Made by a program: the position numbers and the translations under genes
Notes under the pieces: model-generated
Databases searched by the model: none
What the model was told of the DNA's origin: nothing
The model's input: only the letters and a program-made list of their open reading frames with translations
Assembly (NCBI RefSeq): GCF_009914755.1
Contig: NC_060925.1
DNA length: 64,000 nt
Strand: one strand, 5' to 3'
Origin: the human T2T-CHM13v2.0 reference genome, Homo sapiens
Part shown: positions 2,991-14,281 of the stretch, piece after piece
Numbering within the stretch: the first letter of the stretch is position 1
Layout: each line of letters opens with the position of its first letter

Positions 2991-5129
2991 GAGCAGCAGC
3001 AACATTGCTGGCAGACACAACAGTCCATGGGGAAAGCAAGCAAACTTCCAGCCATGGGTGTGGGAGCATGCATGCACATGTACAAGTGCAAACAGGGCCT
3101 GCTTCTGCAGAAGGAGACATTAGTAGTCGAAGCTCATGCAGTGACAAAGGGGCAGCTGCTTACGCTTTAGTCCCCTCTGTGACCCCTGTGCATGCAAAGC
3201 AGTCACCGACAGTGGCAGAGAGGGAAGTAGGAAGCACAGAGTGGTCGGGGTGGGGGTGGGCTGCCCCTGCTCATGGGCACAGAATGCAGCTTTGCTAACA
3301 GATTAGGTGGGGCTGGTGGAAATGGAAAAGCTGCTTAAAATGATTACTTATAGAGAGAATCCAAGGAGTTTTGTTGCTTGTGACCACAGATAATCAGGGG
3401 CTGCCTCCAGCACCAGTCCAACAAGCTTAGAGATGAAAGGACCCCTGTTCAGGTTCTAACCTGAGAGAAATGTCAGAGAAGAATTAGGAAGTGCTTTAAC
3501 ACAAAGCCCAGGATGAAAAATCTGGCAGCTCTCCAACTGTCTCAACATGCAGCATAATAGCGAAACAAAGCCACTCCGCGGCTACATTCATCCAGCCATG
3601 AGGCAGAAGGACTGGGAAAACTGGATTTGGCATGCAAGCCCTTCCCTGGGTTTTCTTCTAGCCCAGCTCACAGTTTGAGGTTTGCAAAGGCATCTGCCTC
3701 CCTGGGCAAGAAGTTTGTCTATACAGAGCAGATACCGGGTTCCTCTTTTCCATAAATATTTCTGCAAAATCCATTCATCTTCCTGAAATCTCTAATTATG
3801 AGTACACTTTGACTTTATTTCTCAGTGCACCTTTCTTTCCCTTAGCCCGATTCTTTCCCCCAGATCCCCACTTTCCTAGGGCAAAAGAAAGCGGCTTCCA
3901 CTCACAGCAAATTTTCTGAGTCCTCCCCACAGTGAAGTGAAAACCAAAGAGAGAACATTATCAGAGAAAAGCAGCACTATTCATACATCCTTAACTTTAC
4001 ATAATAATTTCATAATTGCTTTTTATGAAATCAAGTTTAATCACATTTCTGCTGCAAAAATGCTTGAAATCGTGACTTTACGAAAGGAGAGGTTGCCAGC
4101 GTACTGCATGGCACGCTGCTAGCTATGGAACCCCTCATGGTGTACTTTTGTTTGTTAAGATTTCCAATATTTTAAACTCCATTTCCTAACTCTACAGGTG
4201 CTCTCCTCTTTTTCATATATGATCCTTCCGCCTACTGCCATCTGCCATAGGATTTGTCCCATAGCCTGGAGAAACCCTCCCCCTGCTTACAGTCTTTGGA
4301 ACCCAGCCTCATATCTTGGTTCATCCAGATGGTTACAGAGATCTTCTGACAGAGTTAGGATGCAGTATCACTTTACCAATAGGGGGTGTCCAGTGTATAA
4401 TGTGCTCCATCCTGAGGAATGCAGGGTTTTAGATGCTATAACACAAACAAATGTCCTCCTTTAAAAATTCATACTTTGTCAACCAGAAGTTATTTTCATA
4501 TCTGGTTTAAGCATTTGCAAGAAGTGTGCCAGGAAATACAGCAGAATACAGAAGCTGTCTGCAAATAGATCTCCAAGTGATAAGGCACAATCTTCAGTAT
4601 GCTGCCTGTTGCAAGAGGTTTTTTAAAAATTAAATCTATCATGGAAAATACACTGGCCTTTGCTACTATAGGCAGCTCAGGGACAGTCAGATGGATGTAA
4701 AAGCCTGGGAAGTGAAAAGTTTGAGGAGCCACTGGGACTCTATAACATTGCCTGGTACTGGGAATTAGGATGGAAGGGATAGTGAACTCACTGGTGGCCC
4801 CCTGGGAATATTGCTTCCCAGTCCATGCTGATCCACTTGTTCTTGGGGTCCCTAGACACTTCTAGAAAAGGCTAATCCTGAAGGTTGGCCTACCCTGAAA
4901 GTCTGAGACGATTCCCTTCTGGTGTCTTCAAGCAGCCTTCTCTTAGGTAAAACAAGGTCAGGAAGGAGCTAGAAACAAATTTGGGGGAGAGGGAAGCTGG
5001 ATAGTGATTTCTCTCAGAAGGCTCTCTTCCTAGGTTCTTACTGATTAGCAATTCAGATTCACTGTTCTCATATCAGCCCATCCTGGCAAAGGCACCTTCC
5101 TGATTGAGTATCAGCCATTTAATCAATCA

Positions 5130-5380
5130 TCTTGCTTTTGTGCTGCACCTCTTCCAATTGGTGACTCTATTTCTCTGATCCTAGGAGTGCAGTCCTGGCC
5201 AATGGGCCCTTTGTAGCCCCGGGGGAGGCTGTCATCCCAGTGATGAATCTGGGGGCTTCAGCATGCCCTGTCTATCTCATGTGTAATTCCATTAAAGCAG
5301 CAGGCCATTGGCTACCACCTATGGGCATCTGGGCCCTATGGAGCCACCATAGGACTTGACGAATGATGGCATTTGAATCA
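5130..5380. repeat. Left arm of ~250-bp inverted repeat (partner 5899-6149)
   Basis: Hand alignment to the reverse complement of 5899-6149: about 194/252 identical, outer 28 bp perfect. Confidence 0.92.
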
Positions 5381-5898
5381 ACCATCTCTGTGCCCTGTCC
5401 ATAATAAGGGACATAGGAGTACACAGAAGGGACTGGGTTTCTCTTCTAGTCAGGTAAATTCCTACCCCTCTATCAAGATCCAGCTCAAGAGTTACTTCCT
5501 CAAAGAGTTTCCTAACTATTCCTATGGCCAGAAAAGGCCTTAGATTCATGGTTATCATATTCCCACTCTTCCTTTAAGGCTTCTTCCCAGCCCAGCTTTG
5601 GCCATATTCTAAGCCACTCCCTGACTCTTCAGGTTGTGCCCAGGTGCAAATCTCCAGTCAAGCTGGCCACTCAACTGAGAGCTGAAGGTCATTCTTCTGG
5701 CCTCTCATGATGAACAGAAGCAAACTACAGCTCTGAATATTCCTGTCACAGACCATCACCAGACTTTTATGCTACCTCAGTGGTACCATAGCAGAGCCAC
5801 ATGCCAAATAGCCACTTGTCAGGAGGATCATTCTGCTCCATTGTTTAATTATGCAAACTCATTTGCATCTCCTTCCTCTGTCTCTGAACAAACAGCAA

Positions 5899-6149
5899 TC
5901 ATGCAAATACCATCAGCTATCAAGCCCTGTGGGGGCTCCATAAAGCCTGGATACCCTTAGGCAGTGGCCAGAGGCCTGCTGCTCTAATGGAATTACTGAA
6001 GAGCTACACAGGGCATGCTGCAGTCTCCAAAACCAATCCTGGGCTGACAGCCTCCTCCAGCGGATACTGAGGACCCATCAGCTAGGGAAGCTCTACTAGG
6101 ACAGAGAAATGAGGTCACTATTTGGAAGAGGTGCAGCACAAAAGCAAGA
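5899..6149. repeat. Right arm of ~250-bp inverted repeat (partner 5130-5380)
   Basis: For example ttggaagaggtgcagcacaaaagcaaga (6122-6149) is the exact reverse complement of 5130-5157. Confidence 0.92.
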
Positions 6150-7243
6150 GCATGGTCTTGAGACTCAAGAAGACCACACTCCCCACAGCTTCTTGCCCAT
6201 GCTCCTCACCTGAGAGGGGCCCTACCTGCTCTAGTCACAAGTCCACAGATGGTACCTTTTTGAGAGTTTAGAGACATTGTTTGGTGACCTGGAAGTGGAG
6301 GTCAAAGCAGGCATTTTAGTTTCAGCCCAGAGATTGGAGTGCTTGCTCTGGACAGGACAAAGGCCCCCAAAGGCAGAACTGAGTGGCAAGTGTGGAGAGT
6401 GCACCAGCAGTAGGTGCTGGAATTAGACTCTCTCTCATCGCAGGACAGGAAAGGAGAGTAGCTGAAGCCAAGGTTTCTCCCAGGCAGCAAGACTTGCAGC
6501 CAGAGACAGCTTTGTGACCTGGAACCAGTCTGTGTATGCCACTACTGGATGCCCCAGCCTGCTCCCTTGGTCAGCTGGGGGACAGTGGCCTACCAGCTGA
6601 GGAGCAAGAGAGAGGTGGAACCCCCTCCCCTGGAGATCTAACCTCAAGCACAGTCTACCCTTAAAGAAGGGAGAATCACAGCCCATCAAAGTCCCCACTG
6701 AGTCAAAGAAAATGTGAGTGTGGTGCCAGCTGCTAAAGGGAGCACCACCAAAGCCTGGAAATGGACCTGGAGAGGGGATAATATATCACCTTCCACCAAC
6801 CTCCTCAGTGCACTATTGTGGACTCATCAGTGGCTCTTTCTGTTGGGGCTCAGGGAGCATGGGCTGAAAGAAACCACTTCTCAGACTTCTCCAGTGAATC
6901 CATCCCCAGTGAAGGCAAACGCACACTGGGAGGTGTTGCTTTTCATGCTTCTCCCTTGCCTCTGTCCCTGCCGCTAACTGCCGGCTCTTACTCTTAAGCC
7001 ACTTACTGGACTGCAGCCTGAATTACATCACCAAACAAAAATTACGTTGCTACAATAAGCAATGTGTGAGAAGCCATAGCACAAAACTATGTGCAAACAT
7101 GGAACTCATACAGAGCCTTGGTGCCCTGAAAGCTCCCAGAAATGAAGCAGTTGCTTATGCACAATATATACCACAGTCATACCCCAAGGGGAAAAAAGAA
7201 TTAAAAAATCAAGAAGCCCTATCCAAACCTATCCAAATGATAG

Positions 7244-7289
7244 ACACACACACACACACACACACACACATATTTTATATATATATATA
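7244..7289. repeat. Compound (AC)n/(TA)n microsatellite inside the L1
   Basis: Read directly. Confidence 0.9.
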
Positions 7290-7945
7290 AAGAAGTGCTG
7301 GCTCTCTCAGGTGAGAGGGAACCAGTGCAAGAAGCACTGCAATAAAAAATCCAGAGTGTTATGTTACCTCCAAGAGACCCCACTAGCTCCCAAGCAATGG
7401 ATCTGAGCCAGAATGAAATGTCTGGAATGACAAACATAGAATTCAGAATATGGATGGCAAACACCAATACCCAAAAACATCACAAGCAAGTTGAATTCCA
7501 ATACAAAGAAGCCAGGAAAACAATCCAAGATTTGAAAAACAATATGGCTATATTAAGAAAAAATGAAAGCAAGACTCTGGAATTGAAAAATTCACGGCAG
7601 GAATTTCAAAATATAGTAGGAAGCCTTAACAACAGACTAGACCAAGCAGAAGAAAGTATTTCAGAACTCTAAGATAGGTCCTTTGAATTAACCCAAATTT
7701 GTTTGTTTGAATCAACAAAAATAAAGAAAAAAGAATTTTAAAAAATGAACTAAGCCTTCAAGAAATACGGGATGACATAATGTAACCAAATACATGACTT
7801 ATTAGCATTCTCAAGAGAGAAGAGATAGTAAGCAACTTGGAAAATATATTTGAGGATATAATTCAGGAAAATTTCCCCAATCTTGCTAGAGAGGTCAACA
7901 GGCAGATATAAGAAATCTAGAGAATTCCTGTGAGATACTATACAA

Positions 7946-8260
7946 CAGGGGCTCCCAACCCCTGGAGCCATGACTGGTACCAGTCCAAGGCCTGTTAAAA
8001 ACGGGTCCATACAGCAGGAGATGAGCGGCAGGTGAGCAAGCACTGCCACCTGAGCTCCGCCTCCTATCAGATCAGCAGTGGCATTGGATTCTCATAGGAG
8101 TCTGAACCCTATTGTGAGCTGTGCACGCGAGGAATCTAGGTTGCACACTCCTTATGAGATGAAACAGTTTCATCCTGAAACCATCCCTGCCACCCCAGTT
8201 CATGGAAAAATTGTCTTCCATAAAACTGGTCCCTGGTACCAAAAAGGTTGAGGACTGCTG
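7946..8260 (+). mobile_element. MER1B-like hAT-Charlie DNA transposon nested in L1 ORF1
   Basis: Ends caggggctcccaacc / ggttgaggactgctg; perfect 8-bp TSD ctatacaa at 7938-7945 and 8261-8268. Confidence 0.92.
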
Positions 8261-8659
8261 CTATACAAGACAACCATCTCCAAGGCACATAGTCATCAGA
8301 CTATCCAAGGTCAATGTGAAAGAAAAAAAATCTTAAAGGCAGCTAGATAAAAAGGATCATATTACCTATAAAGGGTAATACTATAATATGACCCTTTCAT
8401 AGTATTAGTGTGAAAACCATCAGACTAAGAACAGACTTCTCAGCAGAAACCTTGCCAGCCAGAAGAGATTGGGGACCATTTTTGGCATTCTTGAAAAGAT
8501 AAGCCAGCCAAGAATTTCATTTCCTTCCAAAGAAAGCTTCATAAACAAAGGAGAAATAAAGTGTTTCCCAGACAAGCAATTGCTAAGGGAATTCATCACT
8601 ACCAGACCAGTCCTACAAAAAATGCTTAAAGGAGTCCTAAACATGGAAACAAACGAATG

Positions 8660-9029
8660 TGTATTTGTCTGTTTTCATGCTTCTGATAAAGACATAACTG
8701 AGACTGGGCAATTTACAAAAGAAAAAGTTTTAATGGACTTACAGTTCCATATGGGGAGGCCTCACGATCATGGCAAAAGCCAAGGAGACACAAGTCGCAT
8801 CTTACGTGGATGGTAGCAGGCAAAGAGAGAGGGCTTGTGCAGGGAGATTCCTCTTTATAAAACCATCAGATCTCATGAGACTTATTCACTATCATGAGAA
8901 CAGCAAGGGAAAGACCTGCCCCTATGATTCAATTATTGAATATGATTCAATTACCTCCCTCCAGGTCCCTCCCAAAACACATGGGAATTCACGATGAGAT
9001 TTGGGTGAGAACACAGTCAAATCATATCA
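8660..9029 (-). mobile_element. THE1 (A/B-like) solo LTR nested in the L1, sense to KCNH1
   Basis: THE1 motifs catcagatctcatgagacttattcactatcatgagaac; perfect 5-bp TSD gaatg at 8655-8659 and 9030-9034. Confidence 0.92.
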
Positions 9030-9063
9030 GAATGATACTTGCTACCACAAAAGTACATGTAAA

Positions 9064-9428
<365 letters not shown>

Positions 9429-12400
9429 TCAACTAGTTGTTGGCAACTAGCCAACAACACTACAACAGGAACAAAATCTCACAAAGCAACATTAACCTTG
9501 AGTGTAAATGGTCTAAATGCTCCAATTAAAATACAGAGAGTGGCAAATTGGATTAAAAAAACAAGACTCATCCTTTTGCTATCTTCAAGAGACCCATCTC
9601 ACATGTAATGACACCCACAGACTCAATGTAAAGAGATGGCAAAAGATCTACTGCACAAATGGAAAACATAAGACAGCAGGGGGTCGCTAGTCTTATATCA
9701 CATAAAATAGGCTTCAAACCAACAAAAGTAAAAAAGGACAAAGAATAACATTACATAATGATAAAGGTGTTCAAATCAACAAGAACACTTAACTATCCCA
9801 AATATATATACAATTAAAATTGGAACATTCAGATTTATAAGACTATTATTTCTAGACCTGAGAAATGACTTTGATAGTCACGAAATAATAGTGGGGGACT
9901 TCAATATCCCACTGACAGCAATAGACAGGTAGTCAATGCAGAAAAATAACAAAGAAATTCTGGACTTAAATTTGGTACTCGACCAATCGGACTTAATAGA
10001 CATCTACAGAATACTCTACCCAACAACCACACAGTATACATTCTTCTCATCTGCACATGGAACGTACTCTAAGACTGACCACGTGCTTGGTCATACAGCA
10101 AGTCTCAATAAATTAAAAAAAATCAAAATCATACAGTGGAATAAAAATAGAAATCAATTCCAAATGAACTCTTAAAACTACCCAAATACATGGAAACTAA
10201 ACAACTTGCTCCTGAATGACTTTTAGGTAAAAAACAAAATTAAGGCAGAAATTAAAAAAAAATTCTTCGAAACAAATGAAAATAGAGACATGACATACTA
10301 AAATCTCTGGGATGCATCAAAAACAGTGTTAAGAGGAAAGTTTATAGTTCTAAATGCCTATATCAAGAAGATAGATAGATCTGAAATTAACAACCTAAGA
10401 TCAGAGCTAAAGGAACTAGAAAACAAGAACAAGCTAAACCCAAAGCTAGCAGAAGAAAAGAAATAGCAAAAATCAGGGCAGAACTAAATGAAACTGAGAC
10501 CAAAAACCATAGGGAGGATCAACAAAACAGAAGGTTGGTTCTTCGAAAAGGATAAACAAGTTCGATAGACCACTAGCTAGATGAACAAAGGAGAGAGAAG
10601 CTCCAAATAAGCACAACCAGAAATGACAAAGACAATATCACAACCAATCCCACAGAAATATAAAAGATCCTCAGAGACTATTATGAACATCTCTATGTAG
10701 ACAAACTAGAAAATCTAGAAGAAATTGATAAATCTCTGGAAACACATAACCTCTCAGGATTGAATCAGGAAGAAAAAGAAATCCTGAAAAAACCAATAGT
10801 GAGTAATGGAATTGAACCAGTAATAAAAAACCTGCCAACCAACAAAAGCCCTGGACCAGATGGATTCACAGCCAAATTCGACCAGATATACAAAGAAAAG
10901 CTGGTTCCAATCCTACTGAAACTATTTTTAAAAATCAAGGAGGAGGGACTCCTCCTTAACTCATTCTACTAAATCAGCATCATCATGATACCAAAATCTG
11001 GCAAAGACACAACAAAAAAAGAAAACTACAGATCAATATCTCTGATGAACATAGATGCAAAAATCTTCAGCAAAATACTAGGAAACTAAATCCAGCAGCA
11101 CATCAAAAAGTTAATTCACTGTGAGCAAGTGGGCTTTATTCCTGGGATGCAAGGATGGTTCAACATGTGCAAATCAAAAAATGTAATTCACCATATAAAC
11201 AGAATGAAAAATAAAAACCATGTAATCATCTCAATAGATGCAGAAAAAGTAGTCAATACAATCCAACATCTCTTTATAATGAAAACCCTCAAAAAACTGG
11301 GAATTGAAGGAACACATCTCAAAATAATAAAAGCCATCTATGACAGATCCACAGCCAACATCATACTGAATGGACAAAAGGCAGAAACATTCGCCCTAAG
11401 AACTAGAACAAAACAAAGATGTTCACTCTCATCACTCCTATTCAACATAGTAATGGAAGTTCTAATCAGAGTAATCAGACAAGAGAAAGAAATAAAGGGC
11501 ATCCAAACAGGAAAGGAAGAAGTCAAACCATCTCTTTGCTGATGATATTATTCTATATCTAAAAAACCCTAAAGACCAAAAGTCTCCTAAATTTGATGAC
11601 TTCAGGAAAGTCTCAGGATACAAAATCAACATACAAAAATCAGTAGCATTTCTATACACCAATAATATGCAAACTGAGAGCCAAATCAAGAATGCAATTT
11701 CATTTGCAGTAGCCACACACACAAAAATAAAATACCTAGGAATACATCTAACCAAGCAAGTAAAAGACCTCTCCTGGAAGAACTATTAAGCACTATTTAA
11801 ATAAATCATAGACAACACAAACAAACAGAAAAGCATTCCATACTTATGAATTGGAAGAATCAGCATCATTAAAATGTGCATACTTCCCAAAGCAATGTAC
11901 AGATTCAACACTATTCCTATCAAGTTACCAATGTCATTTTTTTCACAGAATTAGAAAAAAACTATTCTAAAATTCATATGGAACCAAAAAACAGCGCAAA
12001 TAACCAAGGCAATCCTACACAAAAAGAGTAAAGCTGGAGGCAATCACATTATCCAACTTCAAAGTACATTACGAGGTTACAGTAACAAAAACAGCATGGT
12101 ACTGGTACAAAAACAGATGAATACACCAATGGAACAGAATAGAAAGTTTGAAATGAAGCCACACACCTAAAACTAACTGGTCTTTGACAAAGCCAACAAA
12201 AATAAACAATAGGGAAAGAATACCCTATTCAATAAATGATACGAGAAAATTGGCTAACTATATGCAGAAGAATGAAACTGGACCCCTACCTCTCACCATA
12301 TACAGAAATTAACACAAGATGAATTAAAGACTTAAATGTAATACCTCAAACTATAAAAATCCTAGAAGAAAACCTAGAAAACACCCTCCTAGATATTGAC

Positions 12401-13875
12401 CTAGGCAAATAATTTATGCTAAGTCCTCAAAAGCAAATGCAACAAAAATTAAAATTGACAATTGGGGTCTAATTAAATGAAAGAGCTTCTGCACAGCAAA
12501 AGAAACTATGAACAGAGTAAACAGACAATCTACTGGATGGGAGAAAATATTTACAAACCATGCATCTGATAAAGAACTAATATCCAGAATCTATGAGGAA
12601 CTTAAATCAACAAGCAAAAACCAAATAACTTCATTAAAAAGTGGGCAAACGACATGAACAGATGCTTCTCAAAGGAAGACATCCTAATGGCCAAGAAACA
12701 TGAAAAAATGTTCAACATCACTATCATCAAAGAAATGCAAACCAAAACCACAAAGAAATACCATCTCACACCAGTCAGTATGGTTATTGTTAAAAAGTCA
12801 CAAAATAACAGATGGTAAGGTTGGGAAGAAAAGGGAATGCTTACATACTGTTGGTGGGAATGCCAATTAGTTTAGCCCCTGTGGAAAACAGCTTGGAGAT
12901 TCTCAAATAGCTAAAAATAGAATTACCATTCGACCTAGAAATCCCATTACTGGTTATAAACCCAAAGGAAAATAAATTGTTCTACCAAAAAAGACACCTG
13001 CACTCATATGTTTATCACAGCACTATTCACAATAGCAAAGACATGGAATCAACCCAGGTGCCCATCAACAGTAGACTGGATAAACTATGGTACATATACA
13101 CTATGGAATACTACAGAGCCATTAAAAAGAACAAAATCATGTCCTTTGCAGCAACATAAATGCAGCTGAAGGCCATTATCCTAAGTGAACTAATGCACAA
13201 ACAGAAAACTATGTACCACATGTTCTCACTTACAAGTAGTAGCTCAACATTGAGTACACATGGACACAAAGATGGGAACAATAAACACTTGGGATTCCAA
13301 AACTGGGGGTGGGGGTACAGAAGGGTCCAAAACTGGGCAGGGGGTAATGGTGGCGGGTGGAAGGGTTGAAAAACTATCTACTACTGGGTAGTATGTTCAC
13401 TACTTGGGTAGTGGGATCACTAGAAACCCAAACCTCAGCATCATGTAATATACCCATGTAACAAACCTGCACACATACCCCCAGAATCTAAAATTTAATA
13501 AAACAAACAACCACAAAAAGAGTATGGGCTTGGTGATTGCCAGGCTTGAGCTACAATTCTAACTCCAATTAGCTTAATGGATCAGAAGCAAATTATTTAA
13601 CCTATCTTGGCCTCAGCACCTAAGTGAGATACATGTAAATGCGTTAACTCATACTTGGCAGATGAGACAATAAATTGGGATGGTTATTATATTTTATGCT
13701 GGCACCAGGGGTATCTGCAGAGGCTGAGAGACCTCTACAATCAGGGCCTGGGGGAGAGAAAAAGAAGGGAAAAGGGGCTATGAAATATATAGGAAAAGCT
13801 TCAGAGGGACAAAGAAGGAAAGATGTCTCTGCCGATACCATCTTTTAGCCAAGGCTTTAAGAATATACACCAATA

Positions 13876-14281
<406 letters not shown>

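What the first reader, a model, noticed from the sequence alone, without database searches (positions are those of the whole stretch)
5116..6160. Left arm looks like a templated insertion with its own TSD, ending at the L1 insertion site
Seen: the left arm is bracketed by aatcaatcatct (5121-5132) and aatcaaccatct (5376-5387), 11/12 identical, at a ttt|aatcaa site resembling the L1 endonuclease TT|AAAA motif, with no poly-A. The insert (5133-5375) is the reverse complement of about 5904-6146. Position 6146 is the first base of the putative TSD of the adjacent L1 (6146-6160 / 13518-13532). Inference: a second nick ~1 kb away primed copying of local bottom-strand sequence (nicked DNA or nascent KCNH1 RNA) that ran off at the L1 nick. 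One event would then have produced both the L1 and a nearby inverted copy. Arm divergence of roughly 11-12% each is compatible with an L1PB-age event.
Basis: partly seen in the sequence, partly recalled or inferred. Interest (0 to 1): 0.75.

Follow-up and report, generated by a model that had tools for sequence, protein, structure and literature searches.

The report
Small inverted duplication beside an old L1
A 243-base stretch of a KCNH1 intron was copied in reverse into a spot about 0.5 kb away, and the copied stretch ends where an old L1 element cut the DNA, but whether both arose in one event cannot be decided without other species.

Summary
Arms 5130-5380 and 5899-6149 form an inverted repeat: 194 of 250 aligned bases match, K2P 0.27. 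It has no third copy in the T2T genome. Only the left arm is bracketed by a direct repeat, AATCAATCATCT / AATCAACCATCT. About 0.003 such repeats are expected by chance at these boundaries. The repeat starts at a TT|AA step.

The copied stretch ends at 6146-6149. That lies inside the 13/15 target-site duplication (6146-6160 / 13518-13532) of a 7.36 kb L1 on the + strand. The L1's homology to other copies starts at 6159-6161.

The ages agree within error: 0.135 ± 0.02 per arm against an L1 terminal branch of 0.107.

So the left arm is best read as a local inverted templated insertion. This is a known class of structural variant, with median length 284 bp and microhomology at the junctions (PMC12350158). 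L1-linked inverted duplications of flanking DNA are also in print, but with a different layout.

Coupling to this L1's insertion is plausible (about 0.35) but was not testable here, because no orthologous genomes were on hand. Interest is modest.

The parts
5121..5132 (+). Left copy of the 12-bp direct repeat (AATCAATCATCT), a TSD-like duplication of the insertion site. It is preceded by TTT, giving a TT|AA step. The similarity may extend to 5116 (CATTT).
5133..5375 (-). Inserted inverted copy (left arm), the reverse complement of 5904-6146. It has no poly-A.
5376..5387 (+). Right copy of the direct repeat (AATCAACCATCT). G5375 just before it matches the template, not the target, which places the inner junction at 5375|5376.
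5388..5903 (.). Single-copy spacer between the insertion site and the source. It ends in CAATCATG (5896-5903), and 7 nt of that are identical in direct orientation to 5124-5130.
5904..6146 (+). Source of the copy (right arm). It has no flanking direct repeat of its own.
6147..6149 (+). AGA, complementary to TCT at 5130-5132. This is an in-register 3-nt microhomology at the outer junction, and it lies inside the L1 target-site duplication.
6146..6160 (+). Left copy of the L1 target-site duplication (AAGAGCATGGTCTTG). The inferred bottom-strand nick is at 6145|6146, with an ambiguity of 1-2 bases because the right copy follows an A-rich tail.
6161..13517 (+). L1 element of 7,357 bp with a long 5' UTR. 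Its ORF1 C-terminal domain and reverse transcriptase are both on the + strand, and it ends in a decayed A-rich tail. It carries a later insert of about 320 bp at 9058-9381.
13518..13532 (+). Right copy of the L1 target-site duplication (AAGAGTATGGGCTTG).

Best explanation
The 1,020-bp structure at 5130-6149 is a local inverted duplication, not a mobile element. Bases 5904-6146 were copied in reverse complement and inserted about 0.5 kb upstream, at a site whose 12 bases (AATCAAYCATCT) ended up on both sides of the insert.

The most likely path is inferred, not shown. A staggered break at the insertion site left 3' overhangs. One 3' end found a nearby single-stranded template by short microhomology: the top-strand end ...CATCT-3' pairing with AGA at 6147-6149. 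It copied about 243 nt and rejoined, and fill-in of the stagger made the 12-bp repeat. A replicative double template switch would give the same product.

This is the known class of small inverted duplications, or templated insertions. The source ends inside the 15-bp target-site segment of the neighbouring L1, and that segment is unpaired during L1 integration. I give about 0.35 to the idea that the L1 integration intermediate supplied the exposed template or template end, making this one compound event. I give about 0.4 to two unrelated events. The confidence below is for the core claim only: the left arm is a templated inverted insertion of local DNA.
For: Shown:
- Inverted match of 194/250 aligned bases, with symmetric ends.
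- No third copy in the genome. A search with 5100-6200 returned only itself, the arm-to-arm matches and 4 short L1 5' UTR hits, with 5 candidates, all scored. The right arm alone at E<=10 returned itself and the left arm, 2 of 2 candidates. The left flank is unique.
- A significant direct repeat brackets the left arm only.
- In-register TCT/AGA microhomology at the outer junction, and G5375 shared with the template.
- It is the only local inverted pair in the window that does not fall in the masked, roughly 300-bp repeats: 1 of 8 pairs with arms >=100 and spacer <5 kb.

Fit to a known class: in PMC12350158, inverted duplications are defined as inserts that align reversed within 2 kb of the breakpoint. 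That paper reports 277-311 polymorphic events, a median length of 284 bp, and mostly 1-15 bp microhomology.

For the link to the L1:
- The source end (6146-6149) lies inside the L1 TSD (6146-6160).
- The L1 boundary is confirmed at 6159-6161.
- TT|AA at the start of the repeat. TTAA occurs at 0.0055 per position in the window.
- A repeat length of 12 is typical of L1 nick pairs (from established knowledge).
- Ages of 0.135 ± 0.02 per arm and 0.107 for the L1 terminal branch.
- L1-induced local inverted duplications of flanking DNA, and recombination between two ORF2p-made breaks, are reported.
Against: No empty-site allele was seen, so 'insertion' rests on the direct repeat alone.

The extra CATTT(G) similarity upstream of both repeat copies is out of register by one base. 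It can be read as an 18-bp duplication plus a later 1-bp indel, which would move the boundary off TT|AA.

Against the L1 link:
- The arms are nominally older than the L1 (0.135 against 0.107, about 1.3 SE), and the L1 branch may be overestimated because only 40 of 20,279 candidates were scored.
- Both inferred nick sites are poor matches to the L1 endonuclease consensus recalled as TTTT|AA. On the nicked strand they read GATT|AA and TCTT|GC.
- The published L1-linked inverted duplications sit at the L1 junction with a small hairpin loop. They are not 0.77 kb away with their own repeat.
- From recalled element densities, a chance coincidence of a source end with some L1 nick site is roughly 0.3-1% per inverted duplication. 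That is not rare across a genome-wide scan.
Confidence: 0.78

Rival explanations
1. A second L1-endonuclease nick at TT|AATCAA primed copying of the bottom strand (or of KCNH1 pre-mRNA) from 5904 until it ran off at the L1 nick at 6145/6146. One L1 integration would then have made both the L1 and the inverted copy.
For: The orientation is self-consistent. With the nick at the left edge of the repeat, the primed strand copies bottom-sense template from 5904 outwards, and KCNH1 is on the minus strand (hub table). The source ends at the first TSD base. The TT|AA step and the 12-bp repeat fit. The ages are compatible.
Against: The inverted match continues through 6147-6149, past the nick. Run-off therefore needs one extra base and a 1-in-64 chance match, or a nick at 6149|6150 that shortens the L1 TSD to 9/11. 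An RNA template gives no reason to stop at a DNA nick. There is no poly-A and no complementarity between the primer end and the template at 5899-5903 (3 of 5). No such distal layout appeared in the passages read.
Confidence: 0.2
2. Two unrelated events. An ordinary small inverted duplication arose by replicative template switching or break repair. An L1 insertion landed, before or after, within 4 bases of one end of the source by chance.
For: Small inverted duplications are common: 277-311 polymorphic events against about 5,300 polymorphic L1s in the same call set. Microhomology at the junctions is the norm for that class. The arms are nominally older than the L1. Both nick sites match the endonuclease consensus poorly.
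Against: It needs a coincidence of about 1% or less, plus a TT|AA step at the repeat boundary (0.0055 per position).
Confidence: 0.4
3. The inverted repeat came first, and the L1 was then drawn to it. A young, near-perfect 250-bp inverted repeat formed a hairpin or stalled a fork, and the L1 machinery nicked near the base of the stem.
For: The nick lies 4 bases inside the outer end of the stem. Even today the strand folds into one long stem from 5130 to 6149, with MFE -227 kcal/mol, though no shuffle control was possible at this length. The arms are nominally older than the L1.
Against: No call or paper read here shows a preference of L1 for hairpin bases. The 518-nt loop makes extrusion unlikely (from established knowledge).
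Confidence: 0.08
4. The structure is a non-autonomous DNA transposon with 250-bp terminal inverted repeats, or two opposed copies of an unrecognised repeat.
For: The arm ends are symmetric, and the overall shape is 251 + 518 + 251.
Against: It is single-copy in the genome, by a search that did recover the 77%-identical partner arm. No duplication flanks the whole unit: the flanks read ...AATCAATCA and GCATGGTCT. This model does not explain the direct repeat around one arm only. No library of repeat families was available to check against.
Confidence: 0.04
5. The right arm is the copy. The top-strand end of the L1 'reciprocal' break folded back and primed on itself, as in the published model of L1-linked inverted duplication.
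For: This mechanism is documented for L1 insertions in clones and tumours, with 2-bp microhomology.
Against: That model places the new copy between the left TSD copy and the L1 5' end. Here the TSD lies outside the right arm and abuts the L1 directly. The right arm has no flanking repeat, while the left arm has one.
Confidence: 0.05

Closest known systems
Small inverted duplications in human long-read structural-variant sets (SVAN class, PMC12350158)
   Same: The insert aligns in reverse within 2 kb of its breakpoint. Its size (243 bp) is near the reported median of 284 bp. There is short microhomology at a junction, and no poly-A.
   Different: This one is fixed and old, at about 13% divergence per arm. 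It carries a clean 12-bp duplication of its insertion site, and its source ends inside an L1 target-site duplication. The passages read do not say how often those events have such flanking repeats.
L1-induced inverted duplication of flanking DNA at the reciprocal break end (bioRxiv 10.1101/2024.12.14.628481, Fig. 4D/E as described in the text)
   Same: An inverted copy of genomic DNA lies next to an L1 insertion. There are 2-3 nt of microhomology, and the L1 TSD is preserved.
   Different: In that work the copy sits at the L1 junction after a small hairpin. Here the copy is 0.77 kb upstream of the L1 junction, separated from its source by about 0.5 kb, with its own TSD-like repeat. Here the L1 junction itself is canonical.
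L1-mediated retrocopies (target-primed reverse transcription of cellular RNA)
   Same: A 12-bp flanking repeat that starts at a TT|AA step, and an orientation consistent with priming from that nick.
   Different: There is no poly-A tail, the template is local intronic sequence, and the copy stops at a DNA nick position rather than at an RNA end.
Twin priming (5'-inverted L1 insertions)
   Same: A second 3' end near an L1 integration site is used as a primer, which produces an inversion.
   Different: Twin priming inverts L1 sequence itself. Here the L1 is collinear, with ORF1 and RT both on the + strand, and the inverted piece is host DNA.
Microhomology-mediated template switching (MMBIR/FoSTeS; short-range template switches in great apes)
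   Same: Two junctions with short or imperfect homology, a nearby template, and reversed orientation.
   Different: Only search listings and abstract openings were seen for these papers (PMC2621351, PMC7954356). The reported short-range events are, as recalled, mostly much shorter than 243 bp.

Membership tests
Small local inverted duplication (SVAN definition) | At least 75% of the inserted sequence aligns in reverse orientation within 2 kb of the insertion breakpoint | tested here: met
   The whole of 5133-5375 aligns reversed to 5904-6146, which starts 528 bases from the insertion site. The definition was read.
Small local inverted duplication (SVAN definition) | Breakpoint microhomology of 1-15 bp (typical of the class, not obligatory) | tested here: met
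   TCT/AGA, 3 nt, in register at the outer junction. The inner junction has only out-of-register similarity.
Small local inverted duplication (SVAN definition) | The inserted and source sequences are not a dispersed repeat | tested here: met
   Only the two arms are found in the genome.
L1 ORF2p-mediated insertion (TPRT hallmarks) | Target-site duplication of about 7-20 bp | tested here: met
   A 12-bp repeat, 11/12 identical, with about 0.003 expected by chance. The size range is recalled.
L1 ORF2p-mediated insertion (TPRT hallmarks) | Endonuclease consensus TT|AAAA at the start of the TSD | tested here: inconclusive
   TT|AATC matches 4 of 6. The TT|AA core occurs at 0.0055 per position. The boundary shifts if the repeat is read as 17-18 nt.
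L1 ORF2p-mediated insertion (TPRT hallmarks) | Poly-A tail at the 3' end of the insert | tested here: not met
   5345-5375 ends ...GATGGCATTTG, and there is no A-run or T-run at either end.
L1-linked inverted duplication at the reciprocal end (preprint model) | The inverted copy lies between the left TSD copy and the L1 5' end, after a small hairpin loop | tested here: not met
   The TSD (6146-6160) abuts the L1 directly. The copy is upstream at 5133-5375, with about 0.5 kb between copy and source. The model was read.
L1-linked inverted duplication at the reciprocal end (preprint model) | The same mutational event as the L1 insertion | not testable with these tools
   This needs orthologous loci or a polymorphic allele. 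No related genomes are held.
DNA transposon with long terminal inverted repeats | Multiple dispersed copies | tested here: not met
   Single locus.
DNA transposon with long terminal inverted repeats | Target-site duplication flanking the whole element | tested here: not met
   The flanks ...AATCAATCA and GCATGGTCT... share nothing.
L1 (the neighbouring element at 6161-13517) | ORF1 and ORF2 domains in one orientation, an A-rich 3' end and a TSD | tested here: met
   Tnp_22_dsRBD with E 3.8e-20 at 8409-8816. RVT_1 with E 4.3e-15 at 11090-11542. These are 3 of 10 reading-frame pieces with L1-type hits, one of them below the curated cut-off. There are thousands of genomic relatives and a 13/15 TSD. 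The subfamily name L1PB was not tested.

The most novel reading that the evidence does not exclude
A single L1 integration about 50-70 million years ago (dating recalled from neutral rates) left two scars. One is a canonical full-length L1. The other lies 0.77 kb upstream: a second ORF2p-type staggered break, repaired by copying 243 nt of host DNA from the strand exposed or ended at the L1's own nick. This would be a germline-fixed, distal form of L1-induced inverted duplication, not described in the passages read. It would imply that one integration complex can break DNA at two nearby sites and template repair between them.
Probability: 0.35. Interest if true: 0.55.

Novelty: new member of a known kind. 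Interest (0 to 1): 0.35.

Why it matters
As it stands, this is one more fixed example of a common small structural change, sitting in an intron with no sign of function.

If the link to the L1 were confirmed, it would be an evolutionary fossil of the L1-induced local rearrangements so far documented in engineered clones and tumours. It would also have a layout those studies do not report: a distal insertion with its own site duplication. That would make a genome-wide count of such pairs worthwhile, as a measure of collateral damage from L1 integration.

A side effect is that the KCNH1 pre-mRNA carries a roughly 250-bp imperfect intramolecular duplex in this intron.

Tried and rejected

2. Orthologue comparison was not possible. 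The genome tool states that this genome has no relatives held. The other collections are, by their own descriptions, prokaryotic, viral, phage or plasmid, and I did not query them.

3. I looked for a paralogous 'empty site'. The left flank 4300-5129 and the spacer are single-copy, so no paralogue exists to show the pre-insertion state.

4. A transposon or dispersed-repeat origin was rejected on copy number and the lack of an outer duplication.

5. The fold-back model with the right arm as the copy was rejected, because the L1 TSD lies outside the right arm and only the left arm has a flanking repeat.

6. I considered a staggered-break inversion with inverted duplications at both ends. It predicts that the short repeats are themselves inverted, and here they are direct.

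7. I considered a 5' transduction carried in with the L1. The region is single-copy and no duplication spans 5130...13517.

8. I asked whether the 'TSD' could be L1 sequence. One secondary alignment (L051) reached 6145, with about 8 of 11 matches and a gap. None of the 29 main alignments started left of 6159: 4 started at 6159, 3 at 6161 and 22 further in. I judged the L051 extension to be chance.

9. I did not attempt a survey of other L1 5' junctions for the same layout. The roughly 30 loci obtainable mostly continue into further L1 5' UTR repeats, and a sample that small has no power for a rare event.

10. Dating cannot separate the events, because the sampling error of the arms (± 0.02) dominates.
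Full report
**What is there.** The stretch 5130-6149 is a 1,020-bp structure made of two 251-bp arms in opposite orientation around a 518-bp spacer. The repeat finder reports it as two pieces: 5130-5177/6102-6149 (48 nt, 90% complementary) and 5221-5378/5901-6058 (158 nt, 77%). A MAFFT alignment of 5100-5420 with the reverse complement of 5860-6180 joins the pieces. Over 5130-5380 / 5899-6149 there are 252 columns: 194 matches, 56 mismatches (33 transitions, 23 transversions) and 2 gap columns. That gives p = 0.224 and K2P = 0.271, or 0.135 per arm. Leaving out the 6 columns that hold CpG, 53 of 245 columns differ. Identity is 0.88 in the outermost 50 columns and 0.70-0.84 elsewhere. As single-stranded DNA the region still folds into one long imperfect stem from 5130 to 6149 (MFE -227 kcal/mol), though the tool gives no shuffle control at this length.

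**It is not a repeat family.** A search of the window's own 3.1-Gb assembly with 5100-6200 gave 5 first-look candidates, all scored. They were the locus itself with the two arm-to-arm matches (77%), and four short matches (36-43 nt, 90-94%) to query positions 1059-1101, which is the start of the L1. The right arm alone, at E<=10, found 2 of 2 candidates: itself and the left arm. So the search can recover a 250-nt match at 77% identity, and it finds no third copy. The tool warns that counts are lower bounds, and no repeat-family library was available. The left flank 4300-5129 is also unique. Within the window, 8 local inverted pairs have arms >=100 nt and spacer <5 kb. The other 7 all lie in or overlap the roughly 300-bp stretches that the hub table lists as masked repeats.

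**Which arm is the copy.**
- In this window, 12-mers that match at 11/12 or better at offsets of 150-399 occur at 1.7e-5 per position pair (272 of 15,928,625). About 0.003 are expected over 13 x 13 placements around the two arm boundaries.
- With gaps allowed, the two 36-nt boundary windows score 13 (CATTT-AATCAATCATCT against CATTTGAATCAACCATCT), which a fraction of 0.0004 of 5,000 random pairs 256 nt apart reach.
- The right arm's boundary windows score 8, reached by 10.7% of random pairs.

So only the left arm looks like an insertion with a duplicated target.

**The two junctions.**
- At the inner junction, G5375 is shared with the template (right arm, reverse complement ...TATTTG|CATGA) and is absent from the upstream repeat copy. 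A5376 matches the repeat and not the template. The junction is therefore 5375|5376.
- At the outer junction, TCT (5130-5132) belongs to the repeat, since it is present in both copies. It is also complementary to AGA at 6147-6149. This is a 3-nt in-register microhomology, and the first unambiguous templated base is T5133, opposite A6146.
- Neither end of the insert has an A-run or T-run.
- The repeat starts at TTT|AATCAA. The TT|AA core occurs at 0.0055 per position in this window.

**The L1.**
- Identity and orientation: reading-frame pieces between 6161 and 13517 hit the L1 ORF1 C-terminal domain (Tnp_22_dsRBD, E 3.8e-20, 8409-8816, +) and reverse transcriptase (RVT_1, E 4.3e-15 at 11090-11542; E 1.7e-5, below the curated cut-off, at 11496-11789; both +). 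That is 3 of 10 pieces scanned. The element is therefore collinear and on the + strand.
- Its 3' end is a decayed A-rich tail ending at 13517.
- Relatives: the last 868 bases have 20,279 first-look candidates in the genome, of which 40 were scored. Near-full-length matches are 76-79% identical.
- 5' boundary: against 4 other copies, homology starts at window 6158-6165. Against 29 further loci found with 6161-6900 (333 candidates, 40 scored), the main alignment starts at 6159 in 4, at 6161 in 3, and further inside in 22, never to the left. One secondary alignment (L051) reaches 6145 with weak similarity.
- Other copies carry more L1 sequence before the TGAGAC... motif (...GCTGCTG(T)TGAGAC). This copy therefore begins at a repeat-unit boundary of a monomer-like 5' UTR.
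- TSD: 6146-6160 and 13518-13532 match at 13/15. The background rate is 3.2e-6 per position pair (29 of 9,054,160).
The subfamily name was not checked.

**The coincidence.** The bottom-strand nick implied by the TSD is at 6145|6146. It could lie one or two bases further right, because the right-hand copy follows A's. The copied stretch ends at 6146, or at 6149 if the microhomology is counted. The source therefore ends inside the 15 bases that are unpaired on the top strand while L1 reverse transcription is under way.

**Ages.** A maximum-likelihood tree of this L1's 3' end with 29 other copies is star-like. Its terminal branch is 0.107, against a median of 0.113 over the 30 rows and a range of 0.066-0.143. 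The arms give 0.135 ± about 0.02 per arm (the error is my own binomial estimate). The difference is about 1.3 standard errors, with the arms nominally older. The L1 branch may be too long, because closer relatives may not have been sampled. The ages are compatible but cannot show simultaneity.

**Mechanism.**
- Shown: an inverted copy of nearby single-copy DNA, a duplicated 12-base target, 3-nt microhomology at one junction, and a template end inside the L1 TSD.
- Inferred: a staggered break at the target gave 3' overhangs. One of them primed on a nearby exposed strand, and fill-in produced the repeat.
- Variant (a), landing pad: the top-strand end ...CATCT-3' annealed to AGA (6147-6149) and copied leftwards from 6146, displacing the bottom strand from its 5' end at the nick. 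This explains the microhomology and needs the TSD segment to be single-stranded.
This explains the TT|AA step. It then needs either a nick at 6146|6147 or one untemplated base, and it treats TCT/AGA as chance.
- Variant (c): a replicative double template switch with no L1 involvement gives the same product. If the target originally read CATTTGAATCAA..., the duplication is 18 bases with 5-6 nt of microhomology at the return switch, plus one later 1-bp deletion.
- An RNA (KCNH1 pre-mRNA) template fits the orientation, but it gives no reason to stop at a DNA nick.

**What is known.** Long-read sequencing of 1,019 people found 277-311 inverted duplications, the commonest inversion-type class. Their median length is 284 bp, and they are defined as inserts aligning reversed within 2 kb of the breakpoint. 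Most have 1-15 bp of microhomology, and the authors read them as replicative (PMC12350158; passages and the SVAN methods section read). The left arm meets that definition.

[quoted passage not shown] It explains them by self-annealing of the resected reciprocal end, with 2-bp microhomology and a preserved TSD (10.1101/2024.12.14.628481; passages read). In that model the new copy sits at the L1 junction after a small hairpin, and this locus does not have that layout. A 2026 paper reports that L1 intermediates recombine with other breaks or with each other (PMC13526784; abstract only). MMBIR and short-range template-switch papers were seen only as search listings. My three searches found no description of a distal, separately duplicated inverted copy whose source ends at an L1 nick. 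That is not proof that none exists, and no supplementary files were opened.

**Weighing.** The core reading, that the left arm is a templated inverted insertion of local DNA, gets 0.78.

For the link to the L1, I used recalled element densities of about 3e-4 L1 nick sites per base. On that figure, a source end falls within a few bases of some L1 nick in roughly 0.3-1% of inverted duplications. With perhaps 10^4 such duplications in the genome, tens of chance cases are expected. The TT|AA step and the 12-bp stagger add some weight for an ORF2p-made break. The poor consensus at both nicks, the nominal age gap and the unprecedented layout subtract weight.

My estimates:
- About 0.4 for two unrelated events.
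- About 0.08 for 'inverted repeat first, L1 drawn to it'.
- The remainder for the fold-back and transposon readings.

**Verdict.** The single-event claim remains open. Interest is modest.

Noticed in passing
window 5124-5130 and 5896-5902: CAATCAT occurs inside the duplicated target, and occurs again, in direct orientation, abutting the inner end of the source (5903|5904). My rough estimate of chance is 2-5%. None of the models tried for an inverted copy uses this identity.
   Followed up: partly
window 5116-5120 and 5370-5375: CATTT precedes the left repeat copy and CATTTG precedes the right one, one base out of register. Either the duplicated target was 18 bases and one base was later lost, or this is imperfect microhomology between the target flank and the template end.
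   Followed up: partly
window 6159-6900; loci L042-L051: The L1 5' UTR is built of monomer-like units of about 230-250 bp. In the window, 6272-6294 against 6502-6524 has a spacing of 230. Other copies show TGAGAC-TGAGAC unit junctions and up to three units. This copy starts exactly at a unit boundary.
   Followed up: partly
window 9058-9381 and 13870-14189: A repeat of about 310 bp inside the L1 matches one just downstream of the L1 at 85% in direct orientation. Both stretches are masked in the hub table. Their size suggests Alu insertions, one of them interrupting the L1, but the family was not verified.
   Followed up: no
window 7244-7270: A perfect (AC)13.5 microsatellite lies inside the L1 5' region.
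   Followed up: no
window 5130-6149, minus strand: KCNH1 is transcribed from the minus strand, so its pre-mRNA carries this inverted repeat as an imperfect hairpin of about 250 bp with a 518-nt loop. When young it would have been a long double-stranded RNA. No function is implied.
   Followed up: no
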